Source of the DNA: an uncultured delta proteobacterium
GTDB lineage: Bacteria; Desulfobacterota; Desulfomonilia; Desulfomonilales; Desulfomonilaceae
Length of the DNA: 64,000 nt
Direction of reading: 5' to 3'
NCBI GenBank assembly: GCA_963789265.1
Contig: CAWBKB010000001.1
Location: 1,632,001 to 1,696,000, forward strand
Shown one piece after another: positions 3,794-12,837 of this stretch. The notes below the pieces were generated by a model that did not search any database, had not been told where the DNA came from, and saw nothing but the letters and a program-made list of their open reading frames with translations. How positions within the stretch are numbered: the stretch's first letter is position 1; each line of letters begins with the position of its first letter. The position numbers and the translations under genes are program-made.

Positions 3794-4693
3794 TTGTCGC
3801 TCATCACCATGAAGCAATTGCTGGAAGCGGGGGTGCACTTCGGCCATCAGACGCGGCGCTGGAACCCCAAAATGAAACCCTACATTTTTGGAGCGCGCAA
3901 CGGAATCTATATCATAGATCTACAGAAAACCGTCAGGCTCTTCAAAAGAGCCTACACATTTGTGCAGGACACTGTGGCAGCAGGCGGAGGAGTTCTCTTT
4001 GTGGGGACCAAGAAACAAGCTCAAGACGCGGTCTATGAAGAAGCGGCCCGCTGCGACCAGTATTACGTCAACCAACGGTGGCTTGGCGGCATGCTCACAA
4101 ATTTCAGCACGATAAAACAGAGCATCGAAAGGCTCAATCAGATCGGTGCCATACTCGATAAACCGGAAGAAACCAATTTCACGAAGAAGGAACTGGTCAA
4201 CCTGAGCCGTCAGTACGACAAGCTCAACAAGAACCTGTCCGGAATCAGAGACATGAAAAAACCCCCCTCAACCCTCTTCATCGTGGACCCCAAGAAAGAG
4301 AATATAGCGGTTAAGGAAGCCAAGAAACTGGGCATACCCATTGTGGCCATAGTCGACTCCAATTGCGATCCCGACGAAATCGATTACGTGATCCCGGGTA
4401 ATGATGACGCCATCCGGGCCATTCGGTTGTTCGCAGCGAAGATAGCCGACGCCTGTCTCGAAGGAAAATCCATGTTCGAAGCCTCGCTCAAAGAAGATCT
4501 GGGAGAAGCCGAAGTTGCAGCCTGGAAGAAAGCCGAGCCGGGAGAGGGAGTTGAAGAAGAGATCGCGGCGGGTGAGCCCACTGAAGACCACGCGGTCGAA
4601 ACTGCCGGTACGGCTCCTCAGGAACAAAGTGCGGAGAGCGGAGAGTCAGTGGAGGAAGGTTCGGAACAAGATCGCGCCGAACTTCCGGCATAA
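3794..4693 (+). CDS. rpsB: 30S ribosomal protein S2
   Basis: [30 protein letters not shown] start after AAGGAG. Confidence 0.98.
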
Positions 4694-9673: not shown

Positions 9674-9943
9674 CACCAGTTCGCAATCAAGCAATGAAAA
9701 TCAGATGAATGCGGCACAAACCTGACGAGCTGCCAGCGAGGCGCTCATAGGCGTTAAGTTAACGATTTATTCCCCTCTTTCGTAAAGGGGGGCCAGGGGG
9801 GATTATGGGATATCTCATTGAAAATCCCCCTAAATCCCCCTTTAGAAAAGGCGATATTATACTTGCCAAACCCAGAAAGGGGGAGTAAGATGATACTAGC
9901 TTTTCAACCTTGCTTCTGCAACTCCCCTTTTTCTGGAGGCCCC

Positions 9944-10816
9944 ATGCAACGCATCACCTGTGTGCCGCTTGTCTTAATGGGCAATAACCTCGCGGCTTTA
10001 ATGACGCAACTTTTCCGTGAAGGCATCTATACATATAACGATCTGGCCCGGGATGCACATTGGTTAATTCAGAGCCTTGAACAGTGGGGTGCTGATACTA
10101 TTTTTTCGGGTATATCAAGCAAAGCCGAGGCAATTGGTTTGGCGGCGACACTAAAGGAAAAAACCGGTTCCGATTTTCTCAAAGAAAACGGAACGAAGGA
10201 ATTGGATCAAAAAGAAGGATTGATTTTGACAATTCAACACTTCACAAATTCTCTCTTTTTTGACCTGAATTTGGCCGAATCGTACATGATTACTCAAAAA
10301 CGAGACCGTAACATGAGTATTTTGATATATTCAGCGGAACAAGCTTTAAGTAGGCGAACTATCGAACAACTATCTGAATCCTGTCTTAAAGATATAAAGG
10401 AAGCTGGTAGATGTTTGGCGTTTGACCTTCCCACTGCTTGCGGGTTCCACATATTCCGAGCGTTAGAAACGGTCGTTCTGATGTACTTTCCTGTTTTGTA
10501 CATCCCTTATCCAGATGAAAAGAGACGGAATTTAGGGACTTACATTTTGCTACTTAGAGGCGCAAACCAGTATGGGAACAAAGATGCACAGAAAAATTTA
10601 ATATGCAGGGAAGGCGCCCTGAAAGTTAATAACAAAATTACTGGGATGCTAACCCATTTGAAAGATGTTTACCGGAATCCTTTGATTCATCCAGAAGTGA
10701 CACTTACGGATGATGAGGCTGTGAGCACATTTCAGTTCGCTATCAGCGCTATCGACGTAATGGTCCACGATATTATAGAGTGGAAGGCCGTACTCGCTGC
10801 AAACGTGTGTCAATGA
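9944..10816 (+). CDS. HEPN-domain (DUF4145-like) protein, putative RNase
   Basis: EAGRCLAFDLPTACGFHIFRALE helix and Rx4H motif RNPLIH; GGAGG before ATG 9944. Confidence 0.65.
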   Translation: MQRITCVPLVLMGNNLAALMTQLFREGIYTYNDLARDAHWLIQSLEQWGADTIFSGISSKAEAIGLAATLKEKTGSDFLKENGTKELDQKEGLILTIQHFTNSLFFDLNLAESYMITQKRDRNMSILIYSAEQALSRRTIEQLSESCLKDIKEAGRCLAFDLPTACGFHIFRALETVVLMYFPVLYIPYPDEKRRNLGTYILLLRGANQYGNKDAQKNLICREGALKVNNKITGMLTHLKDVYRNPLIHPEVTLTDDEAVSTFQFAISAIDVMVHDIIEWKAVLAANVCQ

Positions 10817-10832
10817 CGAAAGGACGTTACTT

Positions 10833-11807
10833 ATGAACCGGCCAATCATTTCCAAGCCACATTTCCAAAATGAAGACGCTGCTTACGCGTATATCGAAGC
10901 CCGGATATGGCCTAATGGTCCAGTATGTCCTCATTGCGGCGCTACTGAGCGTATAAGCAAAATGAGGGGCAGCGCAACTCGGATCGGAGTCTACAAGTGC
11001 TACGTGTGCCGGAAACAGTTCACCGTGAAGATCGGAACCGTTTTCGAGTCAAGCCATATTCCGCTTCGCCTATGGCTTCAGGCCATTTCCTTCATTGCCG
11101 TATCCAAGAAAGGCATAAGTTCTAATCAGCTTCACAGGATGTTAGGCATTACTCTGAAAAGTGCGTGGTTCATGAGTCATCGTATCCGGGAAGCTATGAG
11201 GAGCGGTGACTTTGCTCCTTTCGGCGCGAACGGCGGCGCAGTCGAATCAGACGAGACTTTCTTGTGGAACGAGCCCGGCAAAGAGGTGAGAAAGGGGTAC
11301 GCACACAAACGCAAAATTCTGTCTCTTATTGATCGCGAATCCGGTCGGTCACGCAGTATGGTTGTGGATAGTGTTGATGCAAAGACTATCGTTCCAATCC
11401 TCCAAGAAAACATCAACCGGGAAGCGCGGGTCATGACCGACGATGCAGGTCAATACTGCCACATTGATGAAAACTTTGCAGAGCATGGCATGGTTCAGCA
11501 CAGCAGCGGTGAGTATGTCTCAAAAATGGACCGCACCATCCACGTCAACTGCGCCGAGGGCTTCTTTTCGATCTTCAGGCGTGGAATGAAGGGCATTTAT
11601 CAGCACTGCAAGAAACGGCATCTTCACCGTTACCTAGCCGAGTTTGACTTCCGATACACCAACCGTTGTAGCAGACCCGAAACTAAGAAGAGGGCTGCTC
11701 GGGACGGTTTTGACGACGCTGAGAGAGCCGATATATTGCTAAAAGGTGTGGTAGGCAAGCGGCTTACCTATCAAACAATTGATCGGCAGATCGGAATCAT
11801 GCAGTAA
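10833..11807 (+). CDS. IS1595-family transposase
   Basis: Zn ribbon CPHC..CYVC, HTH (GISSNQL..AWFM), DET/TDD/N..EGFF, YLAEFDFRY. Confidence 0.93.
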   Translation: MNRPIISKPHFQNEDAAYAYIEARIWPNGPVCPHCGATERISKMRGSATRIGVYKCYVCRKQFTVKIGTVFESSHIPLRLWLQAISFIAVSKKGISSNQLHRMLGITLKSAWFMSHRIREAMRSGDFAPFGANGGAVESDETFLWNEPGKEVRKGYAHKRKILSLIDRESGRSRSMVVDSVDAKTIVPILQENINREARVMTDDAGQYCHIDENFAEHGMVQHSSGEYVSKMDRTIHVNCAEGFFSIFRRGMKGIYQHCKKRHLHRYLAEFDFRYTNRCSRPETKKRAARDGFDDAERADILLKGVVGKRLTYQTIDRQIGIMQ

Positions 11808-11956
11808 TGAGAAAAAAGAAGAAGCCGATACCGGACGATCCAGAGCAGTATCCGCGGTTCGTAGAAGCAGCCGAAGATCAATTCAACGAAGACGCAGAAG
11901 AAAAGTTTGAAGAGGCAATCAAGAAAATACTTCGACCAAAACAACCAGAACCCTAA
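11807..11956 (+). CDS. 49-aa protein overlapping the transposase stop (not in ORF track)
   Basis: TAATG overlap; MRKKKKPIPDDPEQYPRFVEAAEDQFNEDAEEKFEEAIKKILRPKQPEP*. Confidence 0.65.
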   Translation: MRKKKKPIPDDPEQYPRFVEAAEDQFNEDAEEKFEEAIKKILRPKQPEP

Positions 11957-12049
11957 GCAAGGTTCAGATCCTTAGTTGTGAAAATTCGCGCGGGAAGCGG
12001 AGTTCCTGTTGACTTTTTTGTTTACTCCTGGCATACATCCCTCTTTAGA

Positions 12050-12250
12050 ACTACAAATCGGCTAAGAAGGCTGCCAGGCTCACACTTAGCCGATGAGCAA
12101 TGTTCTTCTCGCCGCTCTTTTGCGGCCAGGTATCAAGGGGAAACAAGGAGTCTATAATGTCGCCTACCGCGCTAGGATGAACCCCTAGCTACGTTCAAAC
12201 GTAGGATGGGGAAACATTCATCCAATGTCATGCCCCACCCGCTGTCTAGC
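12050..12250. ncRNA. Candidate structured RNA inside the IS
   Basis: Consecutive stems 12057-66/12085-94, 12111-26, 12171-89, 12189-204, 12207-37; no long ORF. Confidence 0.4.
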
Positions 12251-12314
12251 TTCTTCTTAGAACATGGCAGGATTCCTGTCAAGTTTTTCGGGAGAAGTGC
12301 GCGAGGAATGAAAG

Positions 12315-12653
12315 ATGAACAATACAGTTGAATGGTCGGGATATCTATTCCATGTCTGTGATTACGAAGGATTATGGAAGAACGTTGGAGGCATTTATCT
12401 TTTTACTGGTCTTAGTCTGTGGAGCTGGAAGTATCCTCTGTATATTGGGAAAGCGAAGAATTTTCATGAGCGCATGTCGGGTCATGAAAAATGGGCCTTG
12501 GCGGTGGCGCTGGGGGCCACCCACGTCCATGCGCTAGTGGTTGACTCGGAGTTCCAGCGCATGCTGATCGAGCATCATTTGATTCAGGCTTATGATCCGC
12601 CACTAAACAAACAGTTACCAGCAAATCCTTTTGCATGGGCAACTCCATACTAA
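12315..12653 (+). CDS. Small standalone GIY-YIG nuclease
   Basis: GGIYLF..LYIGKA..R...H..E..LI..Y.P.LN. Confidence 0.75.
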   Translation: MNNTVEWSGYLFHVCDYEGLWKNVGGIYLFTGLSLWSWKYPLYIGKAKNFHERMSGHEKWALAVALGATHVHALVVDSEFQRMLIEHHLIQAYDPPLNKQLPANPFAWATPY

Positions 12654-12669
12654 CTTAGTTTCAGACGGG

Positions 12670-12698
12670 GGGGATGGTAACATAATTCCATCCCCTTG
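12670..12698 (+). terminator. Hairpin after the GIY-YIG gene
   Basis: GGGGATGG/CCATCCCC 8-bp stem, short T tail, just inside IRR. Confidence 0.5.
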
Positions 12699-12837
12699 TC
12701 GCGGGTTTGTAAACTATAATATCGCCTTAGAAAAGGGGGACTTCGATCTCTCTCGGCCTGCATTCACCTCTTGAAAAGGAACGAAATTGCCTTAAGTTAA
12801 CGCCTATGAGCGAGGCACAGGACGGCTCCCCGCATTA

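What the first reader, a model, noticed from the sequence alone, without database searches (positions are those of the whole stretch)
11957..12653. Hairpin-dense non-coding region directly upstream of a minimal GIY-YIG nuclease
Seen: ~360 bp with no long ORF in an otherwise compact element. It contains a perfect 10-bp stem (ATCGGCTAAG/CTTAGCCGAT), further stems GCCGC/GCGGC, GCTAGG/CCTAGC, CTACGT/ACGTAG and TGGGG..ACATT/AATGT..CCCCA, two GGGGAAACA..AATGTC units 71 bp apart (12137, 12208), and inward-facing -35-like boxes (TTGACT 12009 on +, TTGACA 12282 on -; -10 boxes weak). The 112-aa nuclease has no separate DNA-binding domain. Inference, by analogy only with transposon RNA-nuclease pairs (TnpB/IscB) and RNA antitoxins: an RNA partner for the GIY-YIG or HEPN protein.
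Basis: inference. Interest (0 to 1): 0.72.

Follow-up and report, generated by a model that had tools for sequence, protein, structure and literature searches.

The report
Antisense-RNA leader before transposon cargo nuclease
The folded non-coding stretch is a real, uncatalogued RNA control cassette, with two promoters facing each other, that sits in front of a small DNA-cutting gene carried by a transposon; relatives put the same cassette in front of unrelated genes, so it most likely holds down expression of the gene behind it rather than guiding the nuclease.

Summary
The hairpins and inward-facing -35 boxes are real. The region lies in a complete 2,877-bp IS1595-family transposon (9850-12726) carrying HEPN-like and GIY-YIG passengers.

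I found five other full-length versions and two partial ones, all within the host's family. They share one plan: a weak sense promoter; hairpin H1 with covarying stem; a variable middle; a long sense hairpin next to the ribosome-binding site; and, inside that hairpin, a minus-strand promoter (TTGACA-17-TA in 6 of 7). The H1 loop carries YUGG on one strand in 7 of 7, but which strand varies. That fits sense/antisense kissing loops of the CopA/CopT or Inc type.

The cassette precedes GIY-YIG (3 loci), Cas2-like (2) and unknown genes (2). It is absent from 65 of 65 other GIY-YIG loci and from 9 of 11 HEPN-like passenger loci. The GGGGAAACA units are not conserved.

Best reading: a portable cis-antisense leader that represses a cargo gene, type-I-toxin-antitoxin-like. 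It is probably not a TnpB/IscB-style RNA partner. Transcription and toxicity are untested.

The parts
9850..12726 (+). IS1595-family transposon with passenger genes (2,877 bp)
   Evidence: Terminal inverted repeats and transposase; four sister elements in the genome share the same ends
9842..9849 (.). Left 8-bp target-site duplication (TTAGAAAA)
   Evidence: Sequence
12727..12734 (.). Right 8-bp target-site duplication (TTAGAAAA)
   Evidence: Sequence
9850..9873 (+). Left terminal inverted repeat; holds the -35 (9863-9868) of an inward promoter-like site TTGCCA-17-TAAGAT
   Evidence: promoter read from sequence (inference)
12703..12726 (-). Right terminal inverted repeat
9890..10816 (+). HEPN-like passenger gene (about 308 aa, start uncertain); R-x4-H motif near the C-terminus
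   Evidence: No Pfam or PADLOC match; R..H kept in sister proteins; nearest named Atlas cluster DUF4145 at 0.87, a lead only. The HEPN label is inference.
10833..11807 (+). IS1595 transposase (Zn ribbon plus DDE), 324 aa
   Evidence: PF12762 E 7e-30, PF12760 E 4e-13
11807..11956 (+). 49-aa ORF commonly found after the transposase in sister elements
   Evidence: no family match
11977..11990 (.). Imperfect palindrome upstream of the sense promoter; related site in L149 and, inverted, in L150; possible operator
   Evidence: Sequence comparison; function not tested
12009..12037 (+). Weak sense promoter candidate TTGACT-17-CATACA
   Evidence: TTGA kept at this position in 4 of 4 aligned leaders; -10 degenerate; not found by the strict scan
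12047..12105 (+). AGAAC ... TGTTC segments flanking hairpin H1
   Evidence: AGAAC in 4 of 4, TGTT in 3 of 4 aligned leaders
12057..12094 (.). Hairpin H1: 10-bp stem, inner loop CTGCCAG (12071-12077; CUGG on the minus strand). Proposed kissing loop and antisense terminator
   Evidence: 9 of 15 pairs change on both sides in 4 sequences; followed by a modest U-rich tail on the minus strand
12106..12131 (+). Hairpin H2 (GCCGC/GCGGC)
   Evidence: 2 of 5 pairs change on both sides in 3 sequences
12132..12243 (.). Variable middle: GGGGAAACA units, three small stems, a TIR-like 12-mer (12152-12163), an SD plus 7-codon mini-ORF
   Evidence: Units and TIR-like 12-mer absent from 6 of 6 homologues
12246..12302 (+). 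Hairpin H3, long sense-strand hairpin ending just before the Shine-Dalgarno (12303-12307)
   Evidence: 5 of 12 pairs change on both sides, covariation score reached by 3 of 500 shuffles; more stable on the sense strand in 7 of 7
12254..12282 (-). Antisense promoter candidate TTGACA(12282-12277)-17 nt-TAAGAA(12259-12254)
   Evidence: TTGACA in 7 of 7 and TA at 17 nt in 6 of 7 leaders
12049..12247 (-). Predicted antisense RNA, about 199 nt (ends inferred)
   Evidence: Fold z -2.4; 99-229 nt in the other five full leaders; no transcript data
12315..12653 (+). Stand-alone GIY-YIG nuclease, 112 aa; Y28, Y43, G45, R53, H57, E86, N98 invariant
   Evidence: 868 representatives at E up to 0.001
12667..12698 (+). 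G/C-rich hairpin after the nuclease gene, possible terminator
   Evidence: Read from sequence; not tested

Best explanation
The region is a cis-antisense-controlled leader for the cargo gene of an IS1595 transposon. (1, inferred) A weak sense promoter near 12009-12037 makes an mRNA with a leader of about 270 nt. (2, structure supported by covariation) The leader folds into H1, H2, a variable middle and H3; H3 ends next to the ribosome-binding site. (3, inferred from conservation) A minus-strand sigma-70-type promoter inside H3 makes a 100-230-nt antisense RNA that ends at H1. (4, inferred by analogy) The complementary H1 loops of the two RNAs kiss through a YUGG U-turn and the duplex extends, which blocks translation or destabilises or terminates the mRNA; convergent transcription may add interference. 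The result is a low level of a probably toxic nuclease, released when the antisense RNA decays, as in type I toxin-antitoxin loci. The cassette is portable and is reused in front of unrelated cargo genes.
For: Five further full-length leaders (L149, L150, L167, L089, L010) and two partial ones (L281, L292). Minus-strand TTGACA in 7 of 7 and TA at exactly 17 nt in 6 of 7; mean agreement is 7.0 of 7 in the -35 against 4.5 of 7 in the spacer. L292 was not in any model and also shows TTGACA-17-TA. In this genome TTGACA-17-TA is about twice as common as at spacings 15, 16 and 19 (315 against 129-157), and the TAnnnA form is also raised (80 against 27-53). Covariation in H1/H2: 11 of 20 pairs, 0 of 500 shuffles; in H3 3 of 500. 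H1 loops read YUGG on the sense strand in 4 leaders and on the antisense strand in 3. One L149 loop is UUGGCG, the target-loop motif named in the title of the ColIb-P9 Inc RNA paper (reference lists). YUNR U-turn loops start binding in CopA/CopT (PMC10798244 passages) and in bsrG/SR4, where the partner is the antisense terminator loop (PMC4152353 passages). Cargo differs: GIY-YIG in 3, Cas2-like in 2, unknown in 2. Among GIY-YIG relatives a reverse TTGAC lies 10-60 nt before the start in 15 of 52 non-redundant loci, against 47 of 959 control genes.
Against: No transcript or toxicity data. The homologues are few, come from one family and are kin; models R1 and R3 were built on the 3' module, so conservation of TTGACA is partly built into how they were found. 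Covariation rests on 4 and 6 sequences, with structures derived from the same alignments. The -10 ends in T in only 2 of 7, and L150 lacks TA at 17 nt. The U-tails after H1 are weak. The predicted antisense RNA does not overlap the Shine-Dalgarno, so repression must be indirect, and I could not show how: the H1-loop/H3 pseudoknot shows no cognate advantage (409 of 720 permutations) and a leader ORF through H3 is inconsistent. Mean unpaired probability of the SD region ranges from 0.03 to 0.69. Of the 15 GIY loci with reverse TTGAC, 2 were found through the model, 8 are kin (family B) and only 7 have a plausible -10.
Confidence: 0.62

Rival explanations
1. Same-strand switch: the leader, or a small RNA cut from it, controls the gene by pairing its own loops with downstream sequence (P1 C4 / P4 CI or ColIb-P9 pseudoknot style); the reverse TTGACA is kept as RNA, not as a promoter.
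For: H2 loop against own start region is slightly better than non-cognate pairs (29 of 720 permutations). The window's H1 loop can form 6 bp with H3. The tip of H3 plus a U-run scores as terminator-like at 12265-12281. In family B the GUCAA is invariant while the -10 is not.
Against: The H2 result is one of four tests in that call, with loops assigned by me. H1 loop against H3, start region, H2 loop and all downstream sequence shows no cognate advantage (409, 710, 683 and 661 of 720). It does not explain TA at a fixed 17-nt spacing or the flipped loop.
Confidence: 0.17
2. Convergent promoters act mainly by transcriptional interference; the hairpins are terminators and RNA-stability elements and no RNA pairing is needed.
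For: Both promoters are conserved and face each other about 220 nt apart. Interference between convergent promoters is a described mechanism (PMC4374534 passages).
Against: A conserved YUGG/CCAR loop class in 7 of 7 H1 hairpins is not needed for interference.
Confidence: 0.1
3. The RNA is a bound partner of the GIY-YIG nuclease (guide or scaffold like the TnpB/IscB omega-RNA) or a protein-binding antitoxin for the HEPN-like protein.
For: Three IS1595 elements keep leader and GIY-YIG together although the proteins are only 35-41% identical to the window's. A second conserved leader family lies before 8 other GIY-YIG genes, one with a HEPN-like neighbour. The nuclease has no extra domain.
Against: Same leader before Cas2-like and unknown genes; absent from 65 of 65 other GIY-YIG loci, many of which look like integron cassettes or have their own simple promoter; absent from 9 of 11 HEPN-like loci; loop flips strand; the RNA does not run out through a transposon end to pick up a guide; no conserved repeats.
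Confidence: 0.05
4. The region is a relic of nested transposition (old IS end, repeats) without current function.
For: A 12-mer one mismatch from the TIR lies at 12152-12163 (about 0.011 expected per 2.9 kb). Several homologous loci are decaying (frameshifts in L150 and L167; split H1 in G001).
Against: The 12-mer lacks the subterminal part of true ends and is absent from 6 of 6 homologues. H1 and H3 covary.
Confidence: 0.06

Closest known systems
Plasmid countertranscript systems: R1 CopA/CopT and ColIb-P9 Inc RNA/repZ leader
   Same: Antisense RNA against a folded mRNA leader; recognition hairpin with interior loops and a YUNR loop (UUGGCG in L149, its complement in L167); control acts upstream of the ribosome-binding site (PMC10798244 and PMC3753616 passages; Asano titles in reference lists).
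   Different: The controlled gene is a transposon passenger, not a replication initiator. No Rfam match. No consistent leader peptide and no covarying pseudoknot.
Type I toxin-antitoxin loci (hok/Sok, bsrG/SR4; nuclease-type RalR/RalA, title only; SymE/SymR recalled)
   Same: Folded mRNA next to the SD, a cis-encoded antisense RNA of about 100-200 nt, on a mobile element; in bsrG/SR4 the antisense terminator loop makes the first contact.
   Different: Described toxins are mostly 20-60 aa (PMC8594479 Introduction). Here the gene is a 112-aa GIY-YIG nuclease or a Cas2-like protein, interchangeable behind one cassette. Toxicity is untested.
IS1595-family transposons with passenger genes
   Same: Zn-ribbon DDE transposase, TIRs starting GG, 8-bp TSD (PMC8101967 passages).
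   Different: A leader/antisense cassette on the passenger was not found in the paper searches. Assignment to the ISNwi group is from recall of the TIR pattern only.
TnpB/IscB omega-RNA systems (recalled)
   Same: Small nuclease plus structured non-coding region inside an insertion sequence.
   Different: DDE transposon, not IS200/IS605. The RNA is internal, is not tied to one nuclease and has no variable guide at an element end.

Membership tests
IS1595 family | DDE_Tnp_IS1595 transposase with N-terminal Zn ribbon | tested here: met
IS1595 family | Terminal inverted repeats and 8-bp target duplication | tested here: met
   58 uninterrupted target-like sites in the genome
GIY-YIG nuclease | Fold and conserved Tyr/Arg/His/Glu/Asn set | tested here: met
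   Pfam PF01541 is below cut-off (E 0.033)
GIY-YIG nuclease | DNA cleavage activity | not testable with these tools
   Needs an assay
Cis-antisense leader control (CopA/CopT type) | Convergent antisense promoter inside the leader | tested here: met
   As a conserved sequence pattern only
Cis-antisense leader control (CopA/CopT type) | Recognition hairpin with a YUNR loop on one partner | tested here: met
   YUGG on one strand in 7 of 7 H1 loops; stem covaries
Cis-antisense leader control (CopA/CopT type) | Discrete antisense transcript that represses the gene | not testable with these tools
   No expression data in hand
Cis-antisense leader control (CopA/CopT type) | Match to a catalogued family | tested here: not met
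   Rfam: none in the window; only two tRNAs in 20 related loci
ColIb-P9 repZ pseudoknot switch | Loop pairs with a cognate sequence near the RBS | tested here: not met
   409 and 710 of 720 permutations as good
ColIb-P9 / R1 leader-peptide coupling | Translated leader ORF through the RBS hairpin | tested here: inconclusive
   An ORF with a start runs through H3 in 5 of 6, but frames and SD quality differ; none in L089
Type I toxin-antitoxin | Small toxin of 20-60 aa | tested here: not met
   112 aa nuclease; size range from PMC8594479
Type I toxin-antitoxin | Gene product is toxic and is neutralised by the antisense RNA | not testable with these tools
   Needs expression tests
Type I toxin-antitoxin | SD sequestered by mRNA structure | tested here: inconclusive
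   Mean unpaired probability 0.03-0.69 in six leaders, 0.45 in the window
TnpB/IscB omega-RNA | RNA strictly linked to one nuclease family | tested here: not met
TnpB/IscB omega-RNA | Conserved scaffold next to a variable guide at the element end | tested here: not met
   The leader is 400 nt or more inside the right end; the variable part lies between two conserved modules
HEPN RNA antitoxin (type III / AbiF-like, recalled) | RNA element co-occurs with the HEPN gene; tandem repeats | tested here: not met
   2 of 11 loci (loci cover only 1.5 kb either side of the transposase, L262 less); repeat not conserved

The most novel reading that the evidence does not exclude
A plug-in antisense 'safety catch' that lets transposons carry interchangeable nuclease toxins: the same convergent-promoter, kissing-loop cassette turns a stand-alone GIY-YIG or Cas2-like gene into a type I toxin-antitoxin or abortive-infection unit. 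This would be a type I class defined by its RNA cassette rather than its toxin, and a role for the large unassigned family of stand-alone GIY-YIG proteins. The second leader family before GIY-YIG genes in metagenome contigs suggests that the design is wider than this lineage.
Probability: 0.3. Interest if true: 0.68.

Novelty: new variant of a known kind. Interest (0 to 1): 0.45.

Why it matters
If right, it shows how insertion sequences carry potentially lethal nuclease passengers. A short, portable RNA cassette supplies tight control whatever gene follows. It would extend antisense (type I-like) control beyond small membrane peptides to GIY-YIG and Cas2-like nucleases. It also gives a testable role for a family with 868 representatives, and natural loop variants in both orientations for testing kissing-loop specificity. 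It removes this locus from the list of likely RNA-guided nucleases.

Tried and rejected
Rfam: no family in the window, and none but tRNA in 20 related loci. No tRNA/tmRNA. blastn of the leader against plasmids and phages: no match.

Sequencing runs: no RNA holder listed, which is no evidence either way.

GIY-YIG search in genome contigs: 41 pattern hits, none confirmed. Pattern searches: the family-level 18-mer matched at about the control rate apart from G000 and G018; viral 16-mer hits were chance; metagenome scan 0. Searches used a wrong gap length (10-12 and 14 instead of 13), so they say nothing and genome contigs was never properly searched for the leader. The corrected viral scan gave 66 loci, 0 of which scored with R1.

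R2 found no match in 20 other leaders, including L010, L089 and family B, so those 5' parts are alike in plan only. R3 in a 151-genome phylum sample hit only G000 and G018. Weak model hits L151-L169 other than L167 were partly inspected (10 of 18) and rejected as coding or ordinary promoter sequence; L289, L293 and L294 likewise.

Rejected by reading the sequence: hammerhead (CCGAUGA, not CUGAUGA; core recalled), HDV-like ribozyme, REP, attC. Pseudoknot and leader-peptide models were not supported.

Paper searches found no description of this cassette (listings only). Most subscription journals and bioRxiv supplements are outside the library, and no supplements were read; RNA-motif catalogues held there could bear on novelty. 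Earlier findings: nothing by sequence, place or the first word search.

Full report
Setting. The finding lies in a complete insertion sequence, 9850-12726, with inverted repeats beginning GGCGATATTATA and an 8-bp target duplication. It has inserted into a repeat of about 190 bp that is abundant in the genome. Gene order is HEPN-like passenger, IS1595 transposase, 49-aa ORF, 358-nt gap, GIY-YIG gene. Four sister elements in the same genome have the same ends but other passengers and no similar gap. These features match the IS1595 family as described in PMC8101967 (passages).

Observation. The gap folds better than shuffles on both strands (z -4.53 and -3.14). The 10-bp stem is reached by 5 of 500 shuffles; the 9-nt repeat by 70 of 500. 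There is no Rfam match. The 112-aa protein models well and matches UvrC N-terminal GIY-YIG domains, with the expected residues invariant in 18 of 18 aligned sequences.

Finding homologues. A DNA search of 61 genomes gave one outside hit, 58 nt of the 3' end in G018, upstream of an unrelated 87-aa ORF. Searching 70 family genomes with that locus gave a second such case in G477. These ORFs are Cas2-like (PF09827 E 1.8e-4, below cut-off). A model of the 3' module searched over 122 genomes found L149, L150 and L167. L149 and L150 are IS1595 elements with the order transposase, small ORF, leader, GIY-YIG (35-41% identical to the window's protein). L167 is in a different IS1595 element before an unknown gene. 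Later models added two partial copies in G001: L281 (5' part, E 0.018) and L292 (3' part, E 1.4e-9). In a 151-genome phylum sample only G000 and G018 matched, so this sequence family was found only in the host's family.

Shared anatomy. (a) TTGA at the same place on the sense strand in 4 of 4 aligned leaders, with a degenerate -10. (b) Hairpin H1, flanked by AGAAC and TGTT, then H2; 11 of 20 pairs change on both sides, 0 of 500 shuffles (four sequences, structure taken from the same alignment). L010 and L089 have H1-like hairpins at this place but do not score with that model. (c) A middle that varies in length and sequence; the GGGGAAACA units are found in 0 of 6 homologues. (d) Hairpin H3 ending beside the Shine-Dalgarno; covariation score reached by 3 of 500 shuffles and more stable on the sense strand in 7 of 7. 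(e) Inside H3, on the minus strand, TTGACA in 7 of 7 and TA at 17 nt in 6 of 7, while the spacer varies. The -10 ends in T in only 2 of 7, but TAnnnA at 17 nt is itself enriched in this genome. The predicted antisense RNAs are 99-229 nt and end in H1 plus a modest U-rich tail.

The loop. H1 loops are UUGGCG (L149), CUGGCAG (L150), UUGGUAG (L089) and UUGGCAG (L010) on the sense strand, and the complementary type in the window (CUGCCAG), L167 (CGCCAA) and L281 (CUGCCAA). One strand therefore always carries YUGG, but either strand will do. This is expected if sense and antisense loops pair with each other, and hard to explain for a loop read by a protein. YUNR loops start binding in CopA/CopT (PMC10798244 passages) and bsrG/SR4 (PMC4152353 passages). 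UUGGCG is the ColIb-P9 target-loop motif (seen only as a paper title in reference lists). Recognition hairpins with interior loops are discussed in PMC3753616 (passages). That ColE1 RNA I has a UUGGUAG loop is recalled, not checked.

The cassette precedes GIY-YIG in 3 loci, Cas2-like genes in 2 and an unknown family in 2. It was found in 0 of 65 other GIY-YIG loci. Those genes sit in apparent integron cassettes, prophage immunity regions or operons. The HEPN-like passenger occurs in 11 of 17 close transposase loci, and the leader in 2 of these 11. In favour of a link to GIY-YIG: three elements keep the pair, and 8 metagenome loci have a second conserved leader (family B; 16 of 33 pairs change on both sides) with a similar plan but no detectable sequence match. 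A reverse TTGAC lies 10-60 nt before the start in 15 of 52 non-redundant GIY-YIG loci against 47 of 959 control genes (67 loci in, 4 dropped for lack of upstream sequence or start, 11 as duplicates; 2 of the 15 were found through the model and 8 are family B kin; only 7 have a plausible -10). Recurrent leaders fit a gene that needs tight control as well as they fit a bound RNA, and the cargo swap favours the first.

What I could not show. The antisense RNA stops short of the ribosome-binding site, so repression must be indirect. An H1-loop/H3 pseudoknot has no cognate advantage (409 of 720 permutations) and a leader ORF through H3 is inconsistent. Prompted by earlier AI notes on same-strand kissing leaders, I tested four more pairings; only H2 loop against start region was mildly cognate (29 of 720), the rest not. 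No transcript or toxicity data are in hand.

Verdict. A real, uncatalogued, portable leader with a convergent promoter. It most likely works like plasmid countertranscript or type I antitoxin control of a transposon cargo nuclease (0.62). It is not a member of any Rfam family and does not meet the small-peptide criterion of type I loci (PMC8594479 Introduction). Paper searches found no description (listings only, limited library). New variant of a known kind; interest 0.45.

Noticed in passing
window 9742-9849 and 12727-12812: The IS sits inside a roughly 190-bp MITE-like repeat with 21-bp terminal inverted repeats, present in dozens of copies in the genome; three sister IS copies also sit in copies of this repeat, suggesting a preferred target.
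   Followed up: partly
window 9863-9891; sister elements: The TIRs hold inward-facing -35 boxes; the left one has a -10 at 17 nt that overlaps the start codon region of the first passenger gene.
   Followed up: partly
window 12152-12163 and 10765-10776: Internal TIR-like 12-mers (1 and 2 mismatches; expected 0.011 and 0.14 per 2.9 kb) bracket the transposase and could mark an older, smaller element; none in the four sister elements.
   Followed up: partly
window 11977-11990; L149; L150: An imperfect palindrome lies upstream of the sense -35 and is inverted between L149 and L150; possible operator. 41 similar sites in the genome, 1 with a nearby TTGAC.
   Followed up: partly
L272 (G468:C380), downstream of the transposase: A sister IS1595 carries a 44-aa peptide ORF followed by a hairpin and a minus-strand TTGACA-16-TATTTT, a layout like a type I toxin-antitoxin locus with a 3'-overlapping antisense RNA.
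   Followed up: no
L104, L106, L112, L113, L114, L119, L126, L127: A second uncatalogued leader family before GIY-YIG genes, ending in invariant GUCAA, often beside transposase gene ends, with a conserved downstream hairpin; L119 also has a converging HEPN-like gene.
   Followed up: partly
L012, L013 (viral contigs, around 4001-4330): The GIY-YIG gene lies between divergent Cro-like and CI-like genes and is flanked by a long-range inverted repeat spanning the gene.
   Followed up: no
L011, L100, L115, L121 and others: Several GIY-YIG homologues look like integron gene cassettes with attC-like flanks (read by eye).
   Followed up: no
L281 (G001:C11) and L292 (G001:C32): The 5' and 3' parts of one leader appear on two contigs, broken within the 3' arm of H1, as if split by an insertion or rearrangement.
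   Followed up: no
L167 and L292, middle of the leader: Both keep a strong SD and an ORF starting MY..HRGQVAACPF; possible leader peptide in this subgroup.
   Followed up: no
L003 (G000:C4:37929-41518): A sister IS1595 has a frameshifted transposase and carries an AAA ATPase plus partner gene pair resembling a defence or type IV toxin-antitoxin module (family not scanned).
   Followed up: no
window 12145-12180 and 12206-12331: AAGGAG plus ATG opens a 7-codon mini-ORF; a 41-codon ORF runs through H3 and overlaps the GIY-YIG start by 17 nt but has a poor SD.
   Followed up: partly
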